Positions 3,926 to 64,000 of a DNA stretch of 64,000 bases are shown piece by piece (within the stretch, counting starts at the first letter, position 1; every line of letters begins with the position of its first letter). Under the pieces are notes generated by a model. That model did not search any database. It was not told where the DNA came from and saw only the letters and a program-made list of their open reading frames with translations. This DNA is from Escherichia coli (GTDB lineage Bacteria > Pseudomonadota > Gammaproteobacteria > Enterobacterales > Enterobacteriaceae). A program made the position numbers and the translations under genes. Location of the stretch: the NCBI RefSeq assembly GCF_030013205.1, contig NZ_CP122648.1. One strand, 5' to 3'.

Positions 3926-6900
3926 ACTGACGTACCACGCCAGCGGCTACCTGAAAGCCATTCACCGCACGGATAACGGCATACAGACGCTGGCGACCTA
4001 CGAACAGGATGCGCGGGGGCGGCTGACAGAAGCGGATGCGCGGCTGGACTACCACCTGTTTTATGAGTACGACGCTGCGGACCGGATCATCCGCTGGTCC
4101 GATAACGACCAGACGTGGAGCCGTTTCACCTACGATGAACAGGGCCGGTGCGTGAATGTCACCGGGGCGGAGGGCTATTACAACGCCACGCTGGACTATG
4201 GTGACGGCTGCACCACCGTGACGGACGGCAAGGGCATTCACCGTTATTACTATGATCCTGACGGCAATATTCTGCGGGAAGCAGCGCCGGACGGCAGCAC
4301 CACCATGTATGAATGGGATGAATTCCATCACCTGCTGGCCCGTCACTCCCCTGCCGGGCGGGTGGAGAAATTTGAATACAACGCCGCACACGGTCAGTTA
4401 AGCCGTTACACGGCGGCAGACGGCGCGGAGTGGCAGTACCGCTATGATGAGCGCGGCCTGCTCAGCAACATCACCGACCCTGCCGGGCAGACGTGGACAC
4501 AGCAGTGTGATGAACGCGGCCTGCCGGTAAGTCTGGTGTCGCCACAGGGCGAAGAGACCCGGCTGGCATACACCGCTCAGGGGCTGCTGTCGGGAATATT
4601 CCGCCAGGATGAACGGCGTCTGGGCATAGAGTACGACCACCACAACCGGCCGGAAACACTCACCGACGTGATGGGCCGTGAACACCACACCGAATACAGC
4701 GGTCACGACCTGCCGGTGAAGATGCGCGGCCCCGGCGGTCAGTCAGTGCGGTTACAGTGGCAGCAGCACCATAAACTGAGCGGCATTGAACGTGCTGGAA
4801 CCGGCGCGGAAGGATTCCGCTACGACCGCCACGGCAACCTGCTGGCCTGGACGGACGGCAACGGCGTTGTCTGGACAATGGAATACGGCCCGTTTGATTT
4901 GCCGGTGGCGCGAACGGACGGTGAAGGCCACCGCTGGCAGTACCGCTACGATAAAGACACGCTGCAACTGACAGAAGTCATTAACCCGCAGGGTGAGTCA
5001 TATCTTTATGTTCTGGATAACTGCGGCCGGGTGACGGAAGAGCATGACTGGGGCGGCGTGGTCTGGCGTTACCGCTATGACGCCGATGGCCTGTGTACCG
5101 CCAGGGTCAACGGCCTGGAGGAAACCATCCTCTACAGCCGGGACGCCGCAGGCCGCCTGGCAGAAGTCATCACGCCGGAAGGCAAAACGCAGTATGCGTA
5201 TGACAAATCCGGCAGGCTTACGGGTATCTTCAGCCCGGACGGCACATCACAGCGCACCGGCTATGACGAACGCGGGCGGGTGAATGTCACCACTCAGGGC
5301 CGACGGGCCATTGAATACCACCACCCCGATGAACACACCGTCATCCGCTGTATCCTGCCACCGGAAGATGAACGCGACAGACACCCCGGTGAATCCCTGC
5401 TGAAAACCACGTACCGCTACAACGCCGCCGGAGAACTGACGGAGGTTATCCTGCCGGGGGATGAGACGCTGACGTTCAGCCGTGATGAGGCAGGACGTGA
5501 AGTGCTCCGGCACAGTAACCGGGGTTTTGCCTGTGAACAGGGCTGGAATGCAGCCGGCCAGTCTGTCAGCCAGCGCGCCGGATTTTTCCCGGAAGAAGCC
5601 ACATGGGGCGGGCTGGTTCCGTCACTGGCGCGGGAATACCGTTATGACAGCGCGGGCAATGTGTCGGCTGTCACCAGCCGGGAAGATTACGGACGGGAAA
5701 CACGGCGGGAATACCGGCTGGACCGGAACGGCCAGGTCACGGCGGTGACAGCCTCAGGCACCGGGCTGGGCTATGGCGAAGGCGATGAGTCCTATGGCTA
5801 TGACAGCTGCGGCTACCTGAAGGCGCAGTCTGCGGGCTGGCACCGGATAAGTGAAGAGACTGACCAGTATGCCGGAGGCCACCGGCTGAAACAGGCCGGA
5901 AACACGCAGTATGACTATGACGCCGCAGGCCGGATGGTCAGCCGCACCAGACACCGTGACGGCTATCGCCCGGAAACAGAGCGGTTCCGGTGGGACAGCC
6001 GTGACCAGCTGACCGGGTATTGCAGCGCACAGGGTGAGCAGTGGGAATACCGCCACGACGCCAGCGGCAGACGAACAGAGAAACGCTGCGACCGGAAGAA
6101 AATCCGCTTCACGTATCTGTGGGACGGCGACAGTATTGCGGAAATCCGGGAATACCGCGATGATAAACTGTACAGCGTACGGCACCTGGTGTTTAACGGC
6201 TTTGAGCTGATAAGCCAGCAGTTCAGCCGGGTACGGCAGGCGCATCCGTCGGTGGCCCCGCAGTGGGTGACACGGACGAATCATGCGGTGAGCGACCTGA
6301 CGGGCCGTCCGCTGATGCTCTTTAACAGTGAAGGTAAAACCGTCTGGCGACCGGGACAGACCAGCCTGTGGGGGCTGGCACTCAGCCTGCCCGCAGACAC
6401 CGGCTACCCGGACCCGCGCGGGGAACTGGACCCGGAAGCCGACCCCGGCCTGCTGTATGCGGGACAGTGGCAGGATGCAGAATCCGGGCTGTGCTATAAC
6501 CGGTTCCGGTATTACGAGCCGGAAACCGGGATGTACCTGGTGAGTGATCCGCTGGGGTTGCTGGGGGGTGAGCAGACTTACCGGTATGTGCCAAATCCGT
6601 GTGGGTGGGTTGATCCGCTGGGATTGGCTGCAAGTTCTAAAATCAGCAGTTTGATGGACTATATTGGCGATGGTCGTCGTGTTAGTGGGCATACGGGTTT
6701 CCTGGATGGGGTTCGTTTATCACGTAGTCAAATAAACAATATTGCTAAAGAAATGGAGAAGCTAGGAATTAAAGTAATAAGGAAAGCAGATAAATATTTG
6801 CCACCAAATGCTAGGGCAGCTTTTGATTATGGCCTTCGCAATATTTATCTTAGGAAAAATGCCACCTTATATGAGGTGTATCATGAAGTGATTCATGCTA

Positions 6901-7079
6901 AGCAATTTGCGAAAATTGGACGAGAAGCATACGAAGCACTAGGACGTTTATCTAGGGAGGAACACGTTCTAAATGAAATATTAAAAAGTAAAAATTTATT
7001 CAATGAAGCGGAAATAGCTCATGCCATAAAATATGTTGAGGGATTGAGAGAAAAATTCATGATGGGACTAATAAATTGA
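3849..7079 (+). CDS. Rhs-family YD-repeat protein lacking the usual N-terminal region, with a C-terminal HExxH-containing tip
   Basis: 1076-aa ORF full of YD repeats (e.g. RYDxxGRL, YxYDxxG); core ends in the hallmark PNPCGWVDPLGL motif (~6590-6630), followed by a ~149-aa AT-rich tip containing HEVIH (6882-6896). The first ATG is inside the repeat region and no PAAR-like N-terminus is present, so this may be a fragment or pseudogene. Confidence 0.8.
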   Translation: MAFSYRSGNRRYRITGVSHTDGIRLKLTYHASGYLKAIHRTDNGIQTLATYEQDARGRLTEADARLDYHLFYEYDAADRIIRWSDNDQTWSRFTYDEQGRCVNVTGAEGYYNATLDYGDGCTTVTDGKGIHRYYYDPDGNILREAAPDGSTTMYEWDEFHHLLARHSPAGRVEKFEYNAAHGQLSRYTAADGAEWQYRYDERGLLSNITDPAGQTWTQQCDERGLPVSLVSPQGEETRLAYTAQGLLSGIFRQDERRLGIEYDHHNRPETLTDVMGREHHTEYSGHDLPVKMRGPGGQSVRLQWQQHHKLSGIERAGTGAEGFRYDRHGNLLAWTDGNGVVWTMEYGPFDLPVARTDGEGHRWQYRYDKDTLQLTEVINPQGESYLYVLDNCGRVTEEHDWGGVVWRYRYDADGLCTARVNGLEETILYSRDAAGRLAEVITPEGKTQYAYDKSGRLTGIFSPDGTSQRTGYDERGRVNVTTQGRRAIEYHHPDEHTVIRCILPPEDERDRHPGESLLKTTYRYNAAGELTEVILPGDETLTFSRDEAGREVLRHSNRGFACEQGWNAAGQSVSQRAGFFPEEATWGGLVPSLAREYRYDSAGNVSAVTSREDYGRETRREYRLDRNGQVTAVTASGTGLGYGEGDESYGYDSCGYLKAQSAGWHRISEETDQYAGGHRLKQAGNTQYDYDAAGRMVSRTRHRDGYRPETERFRWDSRDQLTGYCSAQGEQWEYRHDASGRRTEKRCDRKKIRFTYLWDGDSIAEIREYRDDKLYSVRHLVFNGFELISQQFSRVRQAHPSVAPQWVTRTNHAVSDLTGRPLMLFNSEGKTVWRPGQTSLWGLALSLPADTGYPDPRGELDPEADPGLLYAGQWQDAESGLCYNRFRYYEPETGMYLVSDPLGLLGGEQTYRYVPNPCGWVDPLGLAASSKISSLMDYIGDGRRVSGHTGFLDGVRLSRSQINNIAKEMEKLGIKVIRKADKYLPPNARAAFDYGLRNIYLRKNATLYEVYHEVIHAKQFAKIGREAYEALGRLSREEHVLNEILKSKNLFNEAEIAHAIKYVEGLREKFMMGLIN

Positions 7080-7327
7080 TAAAACATAACAAAATAACTA
7101 TCGAAATGGCTCTTGACTTGGCTCGGCGTGAGTTAGAGTTAAGGGAAATTCCTTATATTAAAAATAGTCTACATGCCAATTACAGCTATAAATCTATTAG
7201 TATTGGTTCTAAGCAAGGTTGGTTAATTTCAGCGAAATTAAAAGTCCCTGAAACTTTTGAGCCTGATATGATATTTATTGAGATATCTGACCCAGAAGGT
7301 TTTATTAATATTCCTGATGTATTATAA
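7076..7327 (+). CDS. Small ORF immediately downstream of the Rhs tip; candidate cognate immunity protein
   Basis: 83-aa ORF with a TTG start overlapping the Rhs stop (alternative ATG at 7106); AT-rich like the toxin tip; position is the classic rhs-immunity arrangement. Function inferred from context only. Confidence 0.45.
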   Translation: MIKHNKITIEMALDLARRELELREIPYIKNSLHANYSYKSISIGSKQGWLISAKLKVPETFEPDMIFIEISDPEGFINIPDVL

Positions 7328-7441
7328 ACTACGTTAGAGGTTTTGTTATAAGGTAATCGGTTTCTTTACAGACCGCTGGCGTACATCGCACAGAGGCTGC
7401 TAACAGGGATATTCCTGCCTGGATGAACGCAAGGCAAGATC

Positions 7442-7753
7442 ATGGAAATAGTGATATACATCACTATTTCCATCCTGATTTTAGCTATCGCATTAATAAA
7501 ACAGCGGATGTTAGCCAATATCGAAACCAGTAACCCGTATCACGCCCAGTACATCCTGCGCCGCCGCGATGATTACCTGGTGCTGTTCGACCGTGATGCC
7601 CTGAGCTGCCGCTTCTTTTATGACGCCTTTCCGGGAATGCGTCTGCGCCACCAGGTGACCGGCGATACCGACGATGACCGCCTGGCACACAGCCCCGCAG
7701 ACCGGATGTATACAGGGAAAGATCATCAGAAGTACACTTTTTGTACTAAATAA
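7442..7753 (+). CDS. Hypothetical 103-aa ORF with hydrophobic N-terminus; possible orphan fragment
   Basis: ORF track; N-terminal 30 codons AT-rich and hydrophobic, remainder GC-rich; no recognisable motif. Confidence 0.25.
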   Translation: MEIVIYITISILILAIALIKQRMLANIETSNPYHAQYILRRRDDYLVLFDRDALSCRFFYDAFPGMRLRHQVTGDTDDDRLAHSPADRMYTGKDHQKYTFCTK

Positions 7754-7789
7754 TTCACATTTTATGTTTAAAAATTGAGATATTCCTCA

Positions 7790-9010
7790 TTACCTGAAGC
7801 TGTTTTTTATTGCTTATACATGATCAAATACTCCTTACATAATTAAGGAGAACAAAATGGAACTTAAAAAATTGATGGAACATATTTCTATTATTCCCGA
7901 TTACAGACAAGCCTGGAAAGTGGAACATAAATTATCGGATATTCTATTGTTGACTATTTGTGCCGTTATTTCTGGTGCGGAAGATTGGGAAGATATAGAG
8001 GATTTTGGGGAAACACATCTCGATTTTTTGAAGCAATATGGTGATTTTGAAAATGGTATTCCTGTTCACGATACCATTGCCAGAGTTGTATCCTGTATCA
8101 GTCCTGCAAAATTTCACGAGTGCTTTATTAACTGGATGCGTGACTGCCATTCTTCAGATGATAAAGACGTCATTGCAATTGATGGAAAAACGCTCCGGCA
8201 CTCTTATGACAAGAGTCGCCGCAGGGGAGCGATTCATGTCATTAGTGCGTTCTCAACAATGCACAGTCTGGTCATCGGACAGATCAGGACGGATGAGAAA
8301 TCCAATGAGATTACAGCTATCCCAGAACTTCTTAACATGCTGGATATTAAAGGAAAAATCATCACAACTGATGCGATGGGTTGCCAGAAAGATATTGCAG
8401 AGAAGATACAAAAACAGGGAGGTGATTATTTATTCGCGGTAAAAGGAAACCAGGGGCGGCTAAATAAAGCCTTCGAGGAAAAATTTCCGCTGAAAGAATT
8501 AAATAATCCAGAGCATGACAGTTACGCAATGAGTGAAAAGAGTCACGGCAGAGAAGAAATCCGTCTTCACATTGTTTGCGATGTCCCTGATGAACTTATT
8601 GATTTCACGTTTGAATGGAAAGGTCTGAAGAAATTATGCGTGGCAGTCTCCTTTCGGTCAATAATAGCAGAACAAAAGAAAGAGCCAGAAATGACGGTCA
8701 GATATTATATTAGTTCTGCTGATTTAACCGCAGAGAAGTTCGCCACAGCAATCCGAAACCACTGGCACGTGGAGAATAAGCTGCACTGGCGTCTGGACGT
8801 GGTAATGAATGAAGACGACTGCAAAATAAGAAGAGGAAATGCAGCAGAATTATTTTCAGGGATACGGCACATCGCTATTAATATTTTGACGAATGATAAG
8901 GTATTCAAGGCAGGGTTAAGACGTAAGATGCGAAAAGCAGCCATGGACAGAAACTATCTGGCGTCAGTCCTTGCGGGGAGCGGGCTTTCGTAATCTTGCC
9001 CTGCCTGCTC
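7790..9010. mobile_element. H-repeat (ISAs1-family) element; boundaries approximate
   Basis: Contains the 378-aa H-repeat transposase gene; this type of element is known to accompany Rhs elements. Ends were not mapped. Confidence 0.6.
7857..8993 (+). CDS. ISAs1-family (H-repeat-associated) transposase
   Basis: 378-aa ORF with AAGGAG ribosome-binding site; sequence [32 protein letters not shown] matches the YhhI/YdcC H-rpt protein family as I recall it. Confidence 0.85.
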
Positions 9011-9263
9011 ACCTCCTCCAGGCACTTCCACTACATGATGACCTGCTCGGTGCCACCGCTCCTTTTCACTATGACGTTAACCTCCCTGTCCCAGGACACC
9101 ATGCTTTTGTCTACATTCTACGCAAACGGCAACTTTTATAACCAGTGTAAAAATAACGTGCCGCAATAGTCATACCTATTAATGGTAAAAAGCTGTCACA
9201 ATTCATAAAAAACCTTAATATACGCCACCCTAAACATAACCAGCGTTAATGTAAGGTTTTTGT

Positions 9264-60071: not shown

Positions 60072-61181
<1,110 letters not shown>

Positions 61182-61260
61182 TGAGGGACGTATTTGTATT
61201 AGTCGCGACTTGATCTGACACATGGCCTTGAAAGGTTGAGAGTTACCGGTTTTGATATGA

Positions 61261-61668
61261 GTGTCGAATCCTTATCCAAAACAAGAGGTAACTCTCATGC
61301 TTCATACTGCCAATCCCGTCATCAAACACAAAGCCGGTTTGCTCAATCTGGCTGAAGAACTCAGCAACGTATCAAAAGCCTGTAAAATCATGGGCGTTTC
61401 GCGTGAAACGTTTTATCGTTACCGCGAACTGGCCGCTGAAGGCGGTGTGGATGCGCAGATTAATCGTAGTCGCCGCGCTCCTAACCTTAAGAACCGTACC
61501 GATGAGGCAACTGAACAGGCTGTTGTTGATTACACCGTCGCTTTCCCGACACATGGTCAGCACCGGGCCAGCAACGAGCTGCGTAAACAGGGGGTTTTTA
61601 TCTCCGACAGTGGTGTCCGTTCTGTCTGGTTACTCCATAACCTTGAGAATCTCAAAAGACGATACTGA
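61261..61668 (+). pseudogene. ylbG: IS481-like transposase N-terminal HTH fragment (ylbG-like)
   Basis: 135-aa ORF with HTH (CKIMGVSRETFYRYRE) typical of IS481-family transposase N-termini but no catalytic domain; perfect 10-bp inverted repeat (61238-61247 / 61287-61296) flanks the probable ATG at 61297. Confidence 0.55.
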
Positions 61669-62182
61669 ACAAATTTTATCAGGTGACGTTCCGTAAAAAG
61701 TTGTATGGAGTTCTCGATGCAGTCGGCGCGACTATCAGTACCCCCGCTGAACCCTGGACTATCGGGCCGCCGTACTGGAGCATGTCACCCTGGCGTGCCG
61801 CTGGTTTTCCGCTAATGGTTTATTTCCTCTTTCTTTCCCGGCGAGAATTTATTTTAATCCGGAAGGATTATTTATTTTCAGATAGGGACTCACATTAAAC
61901 ACGAAACATTTTAATTAATGCATGGCTGAATATGTATTACACAATGTCAGATATCGTAAAAGACCAGTGCAATTCTATGTAAACTCTCTGACTGTTCATT
62001 TTATTTGTTGTTTCAGGGTCGGAACTCACCCTCAATAAACAACTGAATACGAGTAGATATTCATCGTCTGAGCTATATGGCTTTACACAATAGCCGACAT
62101 GTCTTTTCTCAGTCAGGGATTTTACTTTTCCTCACTACGAAGTTGACGACTTCGATATGGGATAGACTCTTAATTCAAGCAA

Positions 62183-62674
62183 TTACTCTGCACAAGCATC
62201 AGGCAATCCAGCTCCAATATTTGTTATAAAATAATGCGTAACATTAATTTCACCAACAAAAAAAAGGTTTACGCTATCCCCTTGCCCTGGTATTTTACCA
62301 TATTTACACCACACTTTTTTTGTATCTGGATCATTCTCTGATACGATTTTCGCCACTTGTTCCCTGGCCCTCACCGTCAATGTTTTCTTAAACCTCCCCC
62401 CATCATCGATTGTTAGGGAAAAATAAGAAAAAAAATAATCATCTTCTACATTTGTGGATATTGATATATCCACCGCTACATGCGAAAAAAAATCTGGGAG
62501 CCATGTAAAAACCCCATCACTTTCTGGTATTGCCATATAGTTTATGTAATGCTTACTTACAAGAGATTCATCTTTGTGTAAATAAAGATAAGTAGTCACG
62601 CATAAAAAAACAACGATTATAATAGCAAAAATAAATATTACCATCTTTGAGATGTTACTTGAGATAGCCAGCAT
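62183..62674 (-). CDS. Membrane-anchored small protein downstream of the Rhs toxin tip; candidate immunity protein
   Basis: 163-aa ORF overlapping the Rhs stop by 20 nt (or starting at 62644); N-terminal TM helix; AT-rich; position equivalent to ybbC in K-12. Confidence 0.5.
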
Positions 62675-64000
62675 CTTGTAAAGCCTTTATCGTTTTTTTA
62701 TGCTCTGGATTAATATAATCAATACATCTATTTGAGCAATCTTGTGTTAATGGACATGTCAACCCATGTTCATTAACAGCCAAGTCTTTTTTATTATCTT
62801 CAATCATCTCAGAATGGGATAACTTTACTTTTCTGCCGTACATACCGAACATATTTAACCCGTAATCTCTAATCTCTTTTTCATAACCCAGCCCTTTCGC
62901 TGATCGGCTAACACCAGCGTCATTTAATTTAGACACTCGACAAAATGCCATACAATGGAAAAATTGATCAGTCCCACCTAAATTTAATCTCTTCATATCA
63001 TCATAAGTATCAGATAATATATCCCATGCTCTTTGATGGTTTAGTTGTTCTTTTTTTCGCATTAACGCTACATCTGCAGGACTTAACCCTAATGGATCAA
63101 TACCATTCACCGGATTCAGCGGATACGCATACAGACTCCATCCCCCCGCCAGCCCAATCGGGTCCTGAGTAATATATCGTCCCAGCAACGGATTGTAGTA
63201 CCGGTTCCGGTTATAATACAGCCCTGACTCCTCATCGTGTTGCTGCCCTGGCAGACGGTACGGCTGGTGCAGGTGATGCGGGTTTTCCTCATTCAGCAGG
63301 TTTCCCCACTCATCATACTCCCCGCTCCACGCCGTATTGCCGTCTTCGCTGATGAGCGCCAGCGGCAGCCCCCGGTGGTCACAGTGATAAAGATGAATTT
63401 TTCGCTCAGGTAAATAAACCGGCTCTATCTGTGCCGCCAGCCGCTCCACCGTCAGCCCGCACTGTGCCAGCCACTGGCGGCTTTCACTGCTCACGCGGTC
63501 TGCCCGGATTTCCCCCTCCAGCCTGTCCAGCAGCCGCACCAGTTCAGCCGGGAACACCACGCCGTGTCCGTCCTCGCTCCCTTCCTGCTGGAGCTTCTCC
63601 GCCAGGCTCCGCCGCTGCGTTTTCTCCCGCTCGCCGTTGTCTGTTTCGATGCGGATGAGCGGTGTGAAGCTTCCCGGCTCGTATACCGTCTGGATACGTG
63701 TGCTGTCGGTCTGCACCGTCGTCAGGTGGTCGCCGTCCCAGCCGTACCACGTCACCTCCGGTTTACGCGACAGCGACATCCACCCCGTCAGGTCACGCTC
63801 CCGCCGCCATACCCGTTTCGCCATTCGCCGTCCCAGCGGGTCGTAAAGGTAGCGGCTCTCGACCAGTGGCTCGCCATGCTGTATCCGCGTATAGAACACC
63901 AGGCGGTGCTGGCTGTCGTAGTGGTAGTGGTGGGTCCGCTCGTCGTCCGTCCGTATCACACCCGCCGGGATGCGGTCCGTCTTCTCCGTCAGTCTGCCGT
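62655..64000 (-). CDS. rhsD: Rhs-family protein, C-terminal part with polymorphic toxin tip (N-terminus lies beyond the window); rhsD locus
   Basis: Open frame to the window edge; canonical main-family core end ([23 protein letters not shown]...[11 protein letters not shown]) followed by a ~143-aa AT-rich tip; position next to ylbG/selU matches rhsD in K-12. Confidence 0.8.

What the first reader, a model, noticed from the sequence alone, without database searches (positions are those of the whole stretch)
61182..62182. Transposase fragment with flanking inverted repeat and degenerate repeats beside the Rhs immunity gene
The ylbG-like ORF encodes only an IS481-type HTH N-terminus and is bracketed by a perfect 10-bp inverted repeat (gagagttacc / ggtaactctc). 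The following ~500 bp is AT-rich with partially repeated motifs (e.g. tattacacaatgtcagatatcg vs ctttacacaatagccgacatgtc). This is likely a graveyard of IS or orphan-module remnants that may supply promoters for the immunity gene.
Basis: seen in the sequence. Interest (0 to 1): 0.25.

Follow-up and report, generated by a model that had tools for sequence, protein, structure and literature searches.

The report
Dead IS481 element beside Rhs stub
This stretch is the well-conserved junkyard at the far edge of the E. coli RhsD toxin island: a broken IS481-family insertion sequence (ylbG) fused to the first 32 codons of a lost Rhs gene (ylbI) and its old upstream spacer; it is ordinary and already annotated in K-12.

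Summary
The window is the E. coli mnmH(selU)-ylbG-ylbI-ybbD-rhsD locus. Positions 61195-61721 are a dead ISVvu4/ISSod13-like IS481-family element. It keeps the left terminal repeat (61195-61220), the 5' leader and transposase codons 1-120 (ylbG, HTH only). A ~466-bp internal deletion removed the catalytic core, about 60 bp of the C-terminal region follow, and the right end is missing.

It does not bracket the ORF and is not a terminal repeat. It is the outer stem of a leader hairpin that covers the Shine-Dalgarno spacer up to the AUG, and it is kept by compensatory changes in divergent copies.

Positions 61721-61816 (minus strand) are ylbI, the first 32 codons of an Rhs gene with ATG mutated to ATT, joined directly to the IS fragment. 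Positions 61817-62182 are its AT-rich former upstream spacer.

The "degenerate repeats" are at chance level. The region lies 3' of the immunity gene, so it cannot supply that gene's promoter. All parts are known kinds, and K-12 already annotates ylbG and ylbI. Interest is low.

The parts
61182..61194 (.). Spacer between the mnmH stop codon (61179-61181) and the IS end. Homology to the island-free mnmH-ybbP allele stops at about 61188.
   Evidence: In the empty-site strain 400625 (L017), mnmH is followed by a 127-bp REP-containing spacer and then ybbP. Homology to the window ends at 61188.
61195..61220 (+). Left terminal inverted repeat (IRL) of an ISVvu4/ISSod13-like IS481-family insertion sequence: TGTATTAGTCGCGACTTGATCTGACA.
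   Evidence: Identical or nearly identical IRLs start full copies of about 1200 bp that carry a 19-21/26 matching IRR and 7-bp target duplications. The window has no convincing IRR.
61237..61297 (+). Conserved leader stem-loop of the IS. The inner stems are 61249-61263 / 61270-61282. The 3' arm covers half of the Shine-Dalgarno GAGG (61285-61288), the whole spacer and the A of the AUG.
   Evidence: MFE -31.2 kcal/mol, z=-4.1; pair list; 97.7% of cells paired, 4 of 10 pairs with compensatory double changes, 0/500 shuffles as good; the Rfam psRNA2 consensus structure contains the same stems.
61297..61668 (+). ylbG (K-12 b0502). Transposase codons 1-120 (winged HTH only) plus 3 out-of-frame codons (RRY after K120) and a stop created by the internal deletion.
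61657..61662 (+). Internal deletion junction. IS positions ~464-930 of ~1201 are missing (transposase residues ~121-276, i.e. the whole rve/DDE core). The junction lies in a short A-rich / CTGAA-type microhomology.
   Evidence: BLAST segments 61195-61661 = IS 1-468 and 61662-61721 = IS 930-989. (rve match at residues 162-267 of the intact protein).
61662..61721 (+). About 60 bp from the C-terminal region of the transposase gene (…NEFYQVTFRKKLYG…), out of frame with ylbG. The IS stops here, and its last ~205 bp including the IRR are absent.
61721..61816 (-). ylbI (K-12 b4632). The first 32 codons of an Rhs core gene (PAAR-like N-terminus) with the start codon mutated from ATG to ATT. It is joined directly to the IS fragment, and GCAGTCGG at 61719-61726 is compatible with both parent sequences.
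   Evidence: 78% DNA identity and 28/32 aa identity to the start of the adjacent full-length Rhs gene. (74-81% to many Rhs starts). (PAAR_motif E=3e-4).. GC is 63%, like the Rhs core.
61817..61836 (-). Former translation-initiation region (AGAGGAAATAAACC + start codon) of the lost Rhs gene.
   Evidence: Similarity to other Rhs starts extends 15-20 nt upstream of the start codon. L004 6336-6369 matches 61800-61834.
61837..62182 (-). AT-rich (36% GC) spacer between the immunity gene stop and ylbI. It is most likely the former upstream/promoter region of the lost Rhs gene.
   Evidence: No similarity to IS elements or to coding sequence was found.
61865..62047 (-). 183-bp segment shared at 85% with a second Rhs/vgrG island (strain Ecol_881-type, about 90 genomes). 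There it also follows a small immunity-like ORF and is cut off by an ISEc1 (H-rpt) end.
62119..62149 (-). TCGTCA-19-TAAAAT, the sigma-70 promoter motif reported for the ybbD>ylbI spacer from genomic SELEX with RpoD holoenzyme. It points towards ylbI.
   Evidence: PMC3946193, table; single exact match in the window. The consensus scan did not call it.
62183..62674 (-). Context only: the ybbD-type immunity gene (163 aa). Its 3' end faces the finding.
   Evidence: (NF011298, 369.8 bits, full length).

Best explanation
The finding is the distal scar of the RhsD island, which sits between mnmH (selU) and ybbP in about half of E. coli genomes. It has three parts.

(1) An ISVvu4/ISSod13-like IS481-family insertion sequence lies 13 nt after mnmH and is now dead. 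A ~466-bp internal deletion removed the DDE core. A second deletion removed the last ~205 bp with the right terminal repeat. What remains is the IRL, the leader and an HTH-only ORF (ylbG).

(2) That second deletion fused the IS interior to codon 32 of an Rhs gene that once lay downstream of the ybbD immunity gene, in the same orientation as rhsD. Only the Rhs gene's start region (ylbI, ATG now ATT) and its AT-rich upstream spacer survive.

(3) The 10-bp inverted repeat is the outer stem of a leader hairpin that belongs to the IS family. In RNA it pairs the Shine-Dalgarno/spacer/AUG region with an upstream complement. The inferred function is to keep transposase translation low, especially on transcripts that read in from outside, as in the fold-back inhibition of IS10 and IS50.

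In this locus the remnants are inert and neutral. They are conserved because they are inherited vertically with the island, not because they act on the immunity gene.

Shown: the anatomy, the homologies, the junction positions, the conservation and covariation of the hairpin, and the orientation relative to the immunity gene. Inferred: the order of the deletions, the former existence of a full second Rhs gene, and the translational role of the hairpin.
For: IS identity and truncation. 61195-61661 is 94% identical to positions 1-466 of a near-full copy, and 61653-61721 is 81% identical to its positions 930-997 (refined). Intact relatives are about 1200 bp with 26-bp inverted repeats and 7-bp target duplications. 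The intact transposase passes NF033577 IS481 (286 bits, cutoff 224) and has HTH_29 plus rve. ylbG matches only its first third. No right repeat is present in the window. PGAP names an 82%-identical Vibrio protein 'IS481-like element ISVvu4', and one submitter named ylbG 'ISSod13 transposase'.

Rhs stub. DNA identity is 78% and 28/32 aa are identical to the start of the neighbouring Rhs gene. The same is seen against many Rhs starts. A PAAR motif is detected. MG1655 annotates ylbI as a pseudogene at exactly these bases.

Hairpin. z=-4.1. The same two-tier fold occurs in E. coli, Salmonella, Yersinia, Vibrio, Arsenophonus, Aquicella and Burkholderia copies. The outer stem is 97.7% paired, with 4 of 10 pairs changed on both sides, 0/500 shuffles as good, and slid controls 25-49% paired. 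More distant relatives with non-homologous leaders still pair the Shine-Dalgarno sequence with an upstream anti-SD.

Neutrality. All 4 ylbG differences to a 96.6%-identical contig are non-synonymous. The ybbD-ylbG spacer tolerates 7-kb insertions and is used as a neutral landing pad.

Island context. Empty, dinQ-containing and Hcp-effector alleles of the same mnmH-ybbP site exist.
Against: No genome among 5,426 shows the postulated intact second Rhs gene or an intact IS at this site. The deletion history is therefore reconstructed, not observed.

The AT-rich spacer has no homologue upstream of any intact Rhs gene. Its only paralogue follows an immunity-like ORF. It could equally be the trailing end of the ybbD module.

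No promoter for the IS was found by the consensus scan. The idea that native transcripts escape the hairpin is therefore untested.

All compensatory changes are G-C<->A-T with no informative G-U pair. The covariation does not say which strand folds, nor whether the folded molecule is RNA or DNA.

MG1655 RefSeq currently lists ylbG as a CDS ('putative DNA-binding transcriptional regulator'), not a pseudogene.
Confidence: 0.85

Rival explanations
1. ylbG is a domesticated HTH protein. It would be a truncated transposase kept as a regulator or as an inhibitor of incoming ISVvu4-like elements (as with IS50 Inh, IS1 InsA or the P-element KP repressor). It would bind IRL-type sequences through its intact winged-HTH domain.
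For: The ORF is intact and its native leader and IRL are retained in more than 2,700 genomes. Closely related active copies (86-94% identity) circulate on Enterobacterales plasmids. MG1655 RefSeq calls it a putative DNA-binding regulator.
Against: All 4 substitutions seen in ylbG are non-synonymous, and divergence is no lower than in the adjacent non-coding remnants. The flanking junk is equally conserved, so intactness is explained by youth and vertical descent. The leader hairpin occludes its ribosome-binding site. PGAP treats it as a pseudogene. No experimental paper on YlbG function was found.
Confidence: 0.08
2. One reading: the 10-bp inverted repeat marks the ends of a small mobile element or MITE that carries the HTH ORF.
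For: A perfect 10-bp inverted repeat is present.
Against: Both arms lie within 61 nt, upstream of the ATG, and inside the IS, 17 nt or more from the true 26-bp IRL. The same repeat sits at the same internal position in every full-length copy.
Confidence: 0.01
3. The leader inverted repeat works at the DNA level, as a palindromic operator for the transposase HTH or a host factor, or as part of the IS promoter, rather than as an RNA hairpin.
For: The palindrome lies between the IRL and the start codon, where IS promoters and transposase autoregulatory sites often sit. Symmetric half-site changes would also look like covariation. No G-U pairs discriminate the two readings.
Against: The pairing extends through three stacked stems with different sequences in different lineages. 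Distant relatives with unrelated leaders still pair the Shine-Dalgarno sequence with an upstream anti-SD, which fits RNA-level occlusion. An Rfam covariance model (psRNA2) captures the same stems.
Confidence: 0.15
4. The AT-rich 61837-62182 is simply the 3' trailer of the ybbD orphan toxin/immunity module (terminator or spacer), not the upstream region of the lost Rhs gene.
For: Its only paralogue (85%, 183 bp) also lies directly downstream of a small immunity-like ORF in another Rhs/vgrG island. GC content (36%) equals that of the immunity gene (35%).
Against: It is contiguous with the Rhs ribosome-binding site and start codon. A sigma-70 holoenzyme SELEX site in it is oriented towards ylbI. 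No terminator-like hairpin is found on the minus strand after the immunity gene. The two readings are not exclusive, because a spacer between tandem modules is both.
Confidence: 0.3

Closest known systems
E. coli K-12 ylbG (b0502) and ylbI (b4632) in the rhsD-ybbC-ylbH-ybbD-ylbI-ylbG-selU region
   Same: The sequence is the same (99.3% over the 1001 bp) with the same coordinates relative to selU/mnmH. ylbI is the 96-nt pseudogene and ylbG the 372-nt ORF.
   Different: In the window strain the ybbD-type toxin tip and immunity gene are attached to the main Rhs gene. In K-12 they form an orphan module behind rhsD-ybbC. The finding's 1 kb itself does not differ.
IS481-family insertion sequences of the ISVvu4 / ISSod13 type
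   Same: The 26-bp IRL beginning with TGT, the leader hairpin, and the winged-HTH N-terminus are shared. Identity is 86-94% to enterobacterial plasmid copies and 82% (aa, measured on the intact reference) to ISVvu4.
   Different: The catalytic core, C-terminus, IRR and target duplication are missing, so the element cannot transpose. An exact ISfinder name could not be checked.
Fold-back inhibition of transposase translation in IS10 / IS50 (from established knowledge; not tested here)
   Same: An upstream complement inside the element pairs with the ribosome-binding region, so read-through transcripts are poorly translated. Here mnmH is transcribed towards the IS from 13 nt away.
   Different: This is a different IS family and sequence. 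The native promoter position is unknown, and no experiment exists for this IS.
Rfam RF02349 psRNA2 ('Proteobacterial sRNA')
   Same: The model consensus is the reverse complement of this IS group's left end (IRL plus the same two-tier hairpin). The Burkholderia glumae copy scores 138.8 bits, above the gathering score of 65.
   Different: The window scores 31.1 bits, below gathering. The family is annotated on the strand antisense to the transposase leader, and part of the model covers non-IS flank.
Rhs orphan toxin/immunity modules (C-terminal core fragment + toxin tip + immunity)
   Same: They lie in the same island, downstream of the main rhs gene, and are AT-rich.
   Different: The fragment inside the finding is the N-terminal start of an Rhs gene, not a C-terminal orphan. 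It has no toxin tip or immunity gene of its own.

Membership tests
IS481-family insertion sequence (intact member) | DDE (rve) transposase passing the NCBIfam NF033577 cutoff | tested here: not met
   ylbG scores 88.3 bits against a cutoff of 224 and covers profile positions 2-112 of 284. It has no rve domain. The intact relative scores 286 bits with rve/rve_3.
IS481-family insertion sequence (intact member) | Two terminal inverted repeats | tested here: not met
   The IRL is present at 61195-61220. The best IRR-like site is 17/26 at 61876, which is at the background level for the window.
IS481-family insertion sequence (intact member) | Direct target-site duplication (7 bp in this subgroup) | not testable with these tools
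   The right end is deleted. Five relatives show 7-bp duplications.
IS481-family insertion sequence (derived remnant) | Nucleotide homology to full copies from the IRL inward | tested here: met
   94% identity over 467 bp from the first base of the IRL, plus a 60-69-bp C-terminal piece.
Rhs core protein gene | PAAR-like N-terminus homologous to Rhs starts | tested here: met
   28/32 aa and 78% DNA identity to the adjacent Rhs start. PAAR_motif E=3e-4, which is below the Pfam cutoff because only 32 aa remain.
Rhs core protein gene | YD-repeat shell, RHS core domain and C-terminal toxin | tested here: not met
   The fragment ends at codon 32 against IS sequence.
Rhs orphan module | C-terminal core fragment + toxin tip + cognate immunity gene | tested here: not met
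   No Rhs C-terminal or toxin similarity in 61182-62182. The only Rhs similarity is N-terminal.
Rfam psRNA2 (RF02349) | Score at or above the gathering threshold (65 bits) | tested here: not met
   31.1 bits, E=2.6e-5, full-length model alignment on the minus strand at 61123-61294.
Promoter for the Rhs immunity gene | Located upstream (5') of the gene on its strand | tested here: not met
   The immunity ORF runs 62674->62183 on the minus strand, so the finding lies beyond its stop codon.

The most novel reading that the evidence does not exclude
YlbG could be a domesticated, HTH-only transposase derivative whose translation is gated by the retained leader hairpin. It would bind the terminal repeats of incoming ISVvu4-like elements (common on Enterobacterales plasmids) and damp their transposition in the roughly half of E. 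coli that carry it. In addition, the psRNA2-type antisense strand of the leader could be a real regulatory RNA of this IS group.
Probability: 0.06. Interest if true: 0.35.

Novelty: already known. Interest (0 to 1): 0.1.

Why it matters
It matters little. The value lies in correct bookkeeping.

- ylbG should be read as the N-terminal stub of an ISVvu4/ISSod13-like IS481 transposase, and ylbI as the start of a lost Rhs gene. Neither is a regulator, and neither is a promoter source for the immunity gene.
- The locus records how IS-associated deletions trim Rhs islands.
- It shows that the mnmH-ybbP site is a swap point for different type VI effector cargo.
- A small by-product is that the Rfam 'sRNA' family psRNA2 is in fact the left end (terminal repeat plus leader hairpin) of this IS group. 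That is useful for avoiding false sRNA annotations.

Tried and rejected
- My first family scans of ylbG used 61298 as the start and were out of frame, so they gave no hits. They were repeated in frame.
- I looked for the right end of the IS. The best site is 17/26 at 61876-61901, at the start of the 183-bp shared segment. Two sites of 17/26 and thirteen of 16/26 occur in the 128 kb of window strands, and no target duplication follows it. I rejected it as probably chance and kept it as a note.
- I tested the 'degenerate repeats' and the second inverted pair (61979/62110) as a repeated unit. The spacing is inconsistent and the matches are at shuffle level.
- I searched for the origin of the AT-rich spacer. 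E. coli genomes gave only this locus and the Ecol_881-type island. Plasmids gave only E. coli-derived copies. One exact 22-mer scan of 100,044 species' genomes found only a single E. coli-like contig mis-binned as Alistipes. No ancestral intact state was found.
- The Rfam gathering-level, promoter and terminator scans gave nothing functional in 61817-62182.
- A literature search for psRNA2's origin and for YlbG function found nothing informative.

Full report
**Locus.** The ORF map and similarity searches place the window in the E. coli hyi-gcl-allR-allA-allS-mnmH(selU) region. This is followed by ylbG, a short spacer, a 163-aa immunity gene on the minus strand (62674->62183) and the 3' part of an Rhs core gene. 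The 1001 bases of the finding are present at >=80% coverage in 2,726 of 5,426 complete E. coli genomes, nearly all at >=99% identity, including K-12 (99.3%). In MG1655 the same bases carry ylbG (b0502, 372 nt) and the pseudogene ylbI (b4632, 96 nt), between ybbD and selU.

**The transposase fragment.**
- The ORF starts at ATG 61297 and ends at 61668 (123 aa). My first scans used 61298 and were out of frame.
- In frame it gives Pfam HTH_29 (E=3.6e-19) and no integrase core.
- It gives NCBIfam IS481 at 88 bits against a cutoff of 224, covering only profile positions 2-112 of 284.
- It is 86% identical to residues 1-122 of an intact 346-aa transposase from a Salmonella plasmid. That protein itself passes the IS481 model (286 bits) and carries HTH_29 plus rve/rve_3.
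- PGAP names an 82%-identical Vibrio vulnificus protein 'IS481-like element ISVvu4 family transposase'. One submitter labelled ylbG 'ISSod13 transposase'.

**Extent of the IS.**
- Full copies in E. coli, Salmonella, Yersinia, Vibrio and Aquicella are about 1200 bp. They have 26-bp imperfect terminal repeats (TGTATTAG…TCTGACA). In the five copies where it could be read, they have 7-bp target duplications.
- The window has the left repeat at 61195-61220, only 13 nt after the mnmH stop.
- Homology runs from the first base of the IRL to about 61661 (IS positions 1-468; 94% to the closest copies). It then jumps to IS positions ~930-995 for 61662-61721, and then stops.
- So about 466 bp are deleted internally. 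These are transposase residues ~121-276, which include the whole rve match at 162-267. The deletion creates the ylbG stop codon.
- The last ~205 bp with the right repeat are also gone. The best right-repeat-like site in the window is 17/26 at 61876, which is no better than background.
- An independent 804-bp internal-deletion derivative that still has both repeats and a target duplication sits on Salmonella IncX1 plasmids.

**The inverted repeat.**
- gagagttacc (61238-47) and ggtaactctc (61287-96) are both upstream of the ATG. They therefore do not bracket the ORF, and they are not the terminal repeats.
- On its own a perfect repeat of this length is only marginally unusual (>=10 bp in 6.5% of shuffles).
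- It is, however, the outer stem of a 61-nt two-tier hairpin (61237-61297) with MFE -31.2 kcal/mol for the 100-nt context and z=-4.1.
- The 3' arm comprises the second half of the Shine-Dalgarno GAGG, the entire 8-nt spacer and the A of the AUG.
- The same hairpin is predicted in every copy examined. Sequences differ but remain complementary: GAAAATTACC/GGTAATTTT in Arsenophonus, TAAGGTTACC/GGTAACCTTA in Aquicella, GGGGTTAC/GTAACCCC in Burkholderia. The inner stems also differ in Vibrio.
- On a nine-sequence alignment the outer stem is 97.7% paired. Four of its ten pairs change on both sides, no shuffle in 500 does as well, and slid controls pair at 25-49%.
- More distant relatives (Piscirickettsia, Bradyrhizobium, Leptospira) have unrelated leaders but still pair the Shine-Dalgarno sequence with an upstream anti-SD.
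- Rfam's psRNA2 (RF02349) matches the antisense strand of this left end in all copies. The score is 31 bits in the window (below the gathering score of 65) and 138.8 bits in the Burkholderia glumae copy. Its consensus structure contains the same stems.
- I infer RNA-level occlusion of the ribosome-binding site, in the manner of IS10/IS50 fold-back inhibition (established knowledge, not tested here). This is relevant because mnmH is transcribed into the element with no terminator predicted in between.
- A DNA-level operator role is not excluded, because no G-U pairs discriminate the two readings.

**The sequence after the IS.**
- 61721-61816 on the minus strand translates to ISGKPAARQGDMLQYGGPIVQGSAGVLIVAPT. 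The adjacent full-length Rhs protein begins MSGKPAARQGDMTQYGGPIVQGSAGVRIGAPT. That is 28/32 identical residues and 78% DNA identity.
- Other Rhs starts match at 74-81%, and the similarity extends 15-20 nt upstream of the start codon into the ribosome-binding region.
- Pfam sees a PAAR motif. GC is 63%, like the Rhs core.
- This is ylbI: an Rhs N-terminal stub whose ATG has become ATT, abutting the IS fragment at 61721/61722. A few bases (GCAGTCGG) are compatible with both parents.
- It is not an orphan C-terminal toxin module.

**The AT-rich spacer, 61817-62182 (36% GC).**
- It has no IS or coding similarity.
- Its central 183 bp (61865-62047) recur at 85% in about 90 genomes in a vgrG/Rhs island next to pptA-ydcC. 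There they also follow a small, unrelated immunity-like ORF and are cut off by the end of a 1292-bp ISEc1/H-rpt copy. The same island keeps only five codons of its Rhs gene, against a second ISEc1 copy.
- Genomic SELEX with RpoD holoenzyme reported a constitutive promoter in the ybbD>ylbI spacer, TCGTCA-19-TAAAAT (PMC3946193). That motif occurs once in the window, at 62149->62119 on the minus strand, pointing to ylbI.
- I therefore read the spacer as the former upstream region of the lost Rhs gene. The alternative, which is not exclusive, is that it is the trailer of the ybbD module.

**The 'degenerate repeats'.** The two motifs at 61935 and 62081 share 14 of 22 positions. The best 18-mer match (14/18) is reached in 22% of shuffles. 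This is chance.

**Relation to the immunity gene.** The immunity ORF is on the minus strand and its stop codon is at 62183. The whole finding is therefore downstream of it and cannot provide its promoter.

**Context and history.**
- Genomes lacking the island have mnmH followed by a 127-bp REP-containing spacer and ybbP. Other alleles at the same site carry a dinQ-like toxin gene, or an Hcp-effector gene with three DUF2931 genes.
- Homology to the empty site ends at 61188, 6 nt before the IRL. It resumes 6 nt before the ybbP stop. The IS remnant therefore marks the distal edge of the RhsD island.
- The simplest history, which is inferred, has three steps. An ISVvu4-like element inserted at the island edge, beyond a second Rhs gene. 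One illegitimate deletion removed its catalytic core. Another joined its interior to codon 32 of that Rhs gene.

**No sign of function.** Against a 96.6%-identical contig and against K-12, the remnants differ at about 0.8% of positions. All four ylbG differences are non-synonymous. The ybbD-ylbG spacer accepts 7-kb insertions and is used as a neutral landing pad (PMC2847246 and bioRxiv 10.1101/2020.01.04.894907). No paper on YlbG function was found.

**Verdict.** This is a correctly spotted but ordinary pseudogene junction. The IS stub and the Rhs stub are both already annotated in K-12. The inverted repeat is a conserved IS leader hairpin, the repeats are chance, and the promoter idea is excluded by orientation.

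Noticed in passing
window 61123-61294 (-); L021 110-278 (-): The Rfam 'sRNA' family psRNA2 (RF02349) is the antisense of the left end (terminal repeat plus leader hairpin) of this IS481 subgroup. A Burkholderia glumae IS copy scores 138.8 bits (gathering score 65). All enterobacterial copies score 31-58 bits at the same position.
   Followed up: partly
window 62101-64000 vs L003 (K-12) 5920-9015: The window strain's main Rhs gene carries the toxin tip and immunity gene that K-12 holds as the orphan ylbH-ybbD module (97% identity over 62101-63363). The K-12 rhsD tip and ybbC are absent. This looks like recombination between the orphan and main core repeats, i.e. C-terminal displacement.
   Followed up: partly
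L016, L017, L018 (mnmH-ybbP interval in other E. coli): The mnmH-ybbP site is a swap point. Four states were seen: empty (127-bp REP spacer), a dinQ-like type I toxin gene, an Hcp(TssD)-effector gene with three DUF2931 genes, or the RhsD island.
   Followed up: partly
L012 268-1071 (Salmonella Heidelberg IncX1 plasmid): An 804-bp internal-deletion derivative of the same IS (IS positions ~491-888 missing) keeps both terminal repeats and a 7-bp target duplication (ACTAAAG). It may be a non-autonomous element. It is present on several 37-kb Salmonella plasmids.
   Followed up: partly
window 61876-61901: TTTCAGATAGGGACTCACATTAAACA matches the IS right-repeat consensus at 17/26, in the right orientation, and lies at the start of the 183-bp shared segment. 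Two such scores occur in the 128 kb of window strands and no target duplication follows. It is probably chance but is not fully excluded as a relic.
   Followed up: partly
window 61865-62047 vs L004 4001-4185: The shared 183-bp segment is about 97% identical over its first ~100 nt (61865-61963) but only about 75% over the rest. The break is sharp. It could be a gene-conversion tract or a constrained element, and remains unexplained.
   Followed up: no
window 60548-61181 vs 61182-62182: The pseudogene remnants differ from K-12 at about 0.7% of positions, while the adjacent functional mnmH 3' end differs at 3.3%. This suggests a recombination boundary near the mnmH stop codon.
   Followed up: no
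window 62655-63100 (-): The Rhs C-terminal toxin tip has only a weak, sub-threshold Pfam similarity (SAA, E=9e-4), so its activity is unassigned. The immunity protein matches only the uncharacterised NCBIfam model PRK14710.1-3.
   Followed up: no
L014 (CASFSC010000074.1): A 3,995-bp contig binned as 'uncultured Alistipes sp.' is 96.6% identical to window 60548-63363. This is Escherichia DNA mis-binned into a Bacteroidota MAG.
   Followed up: yes
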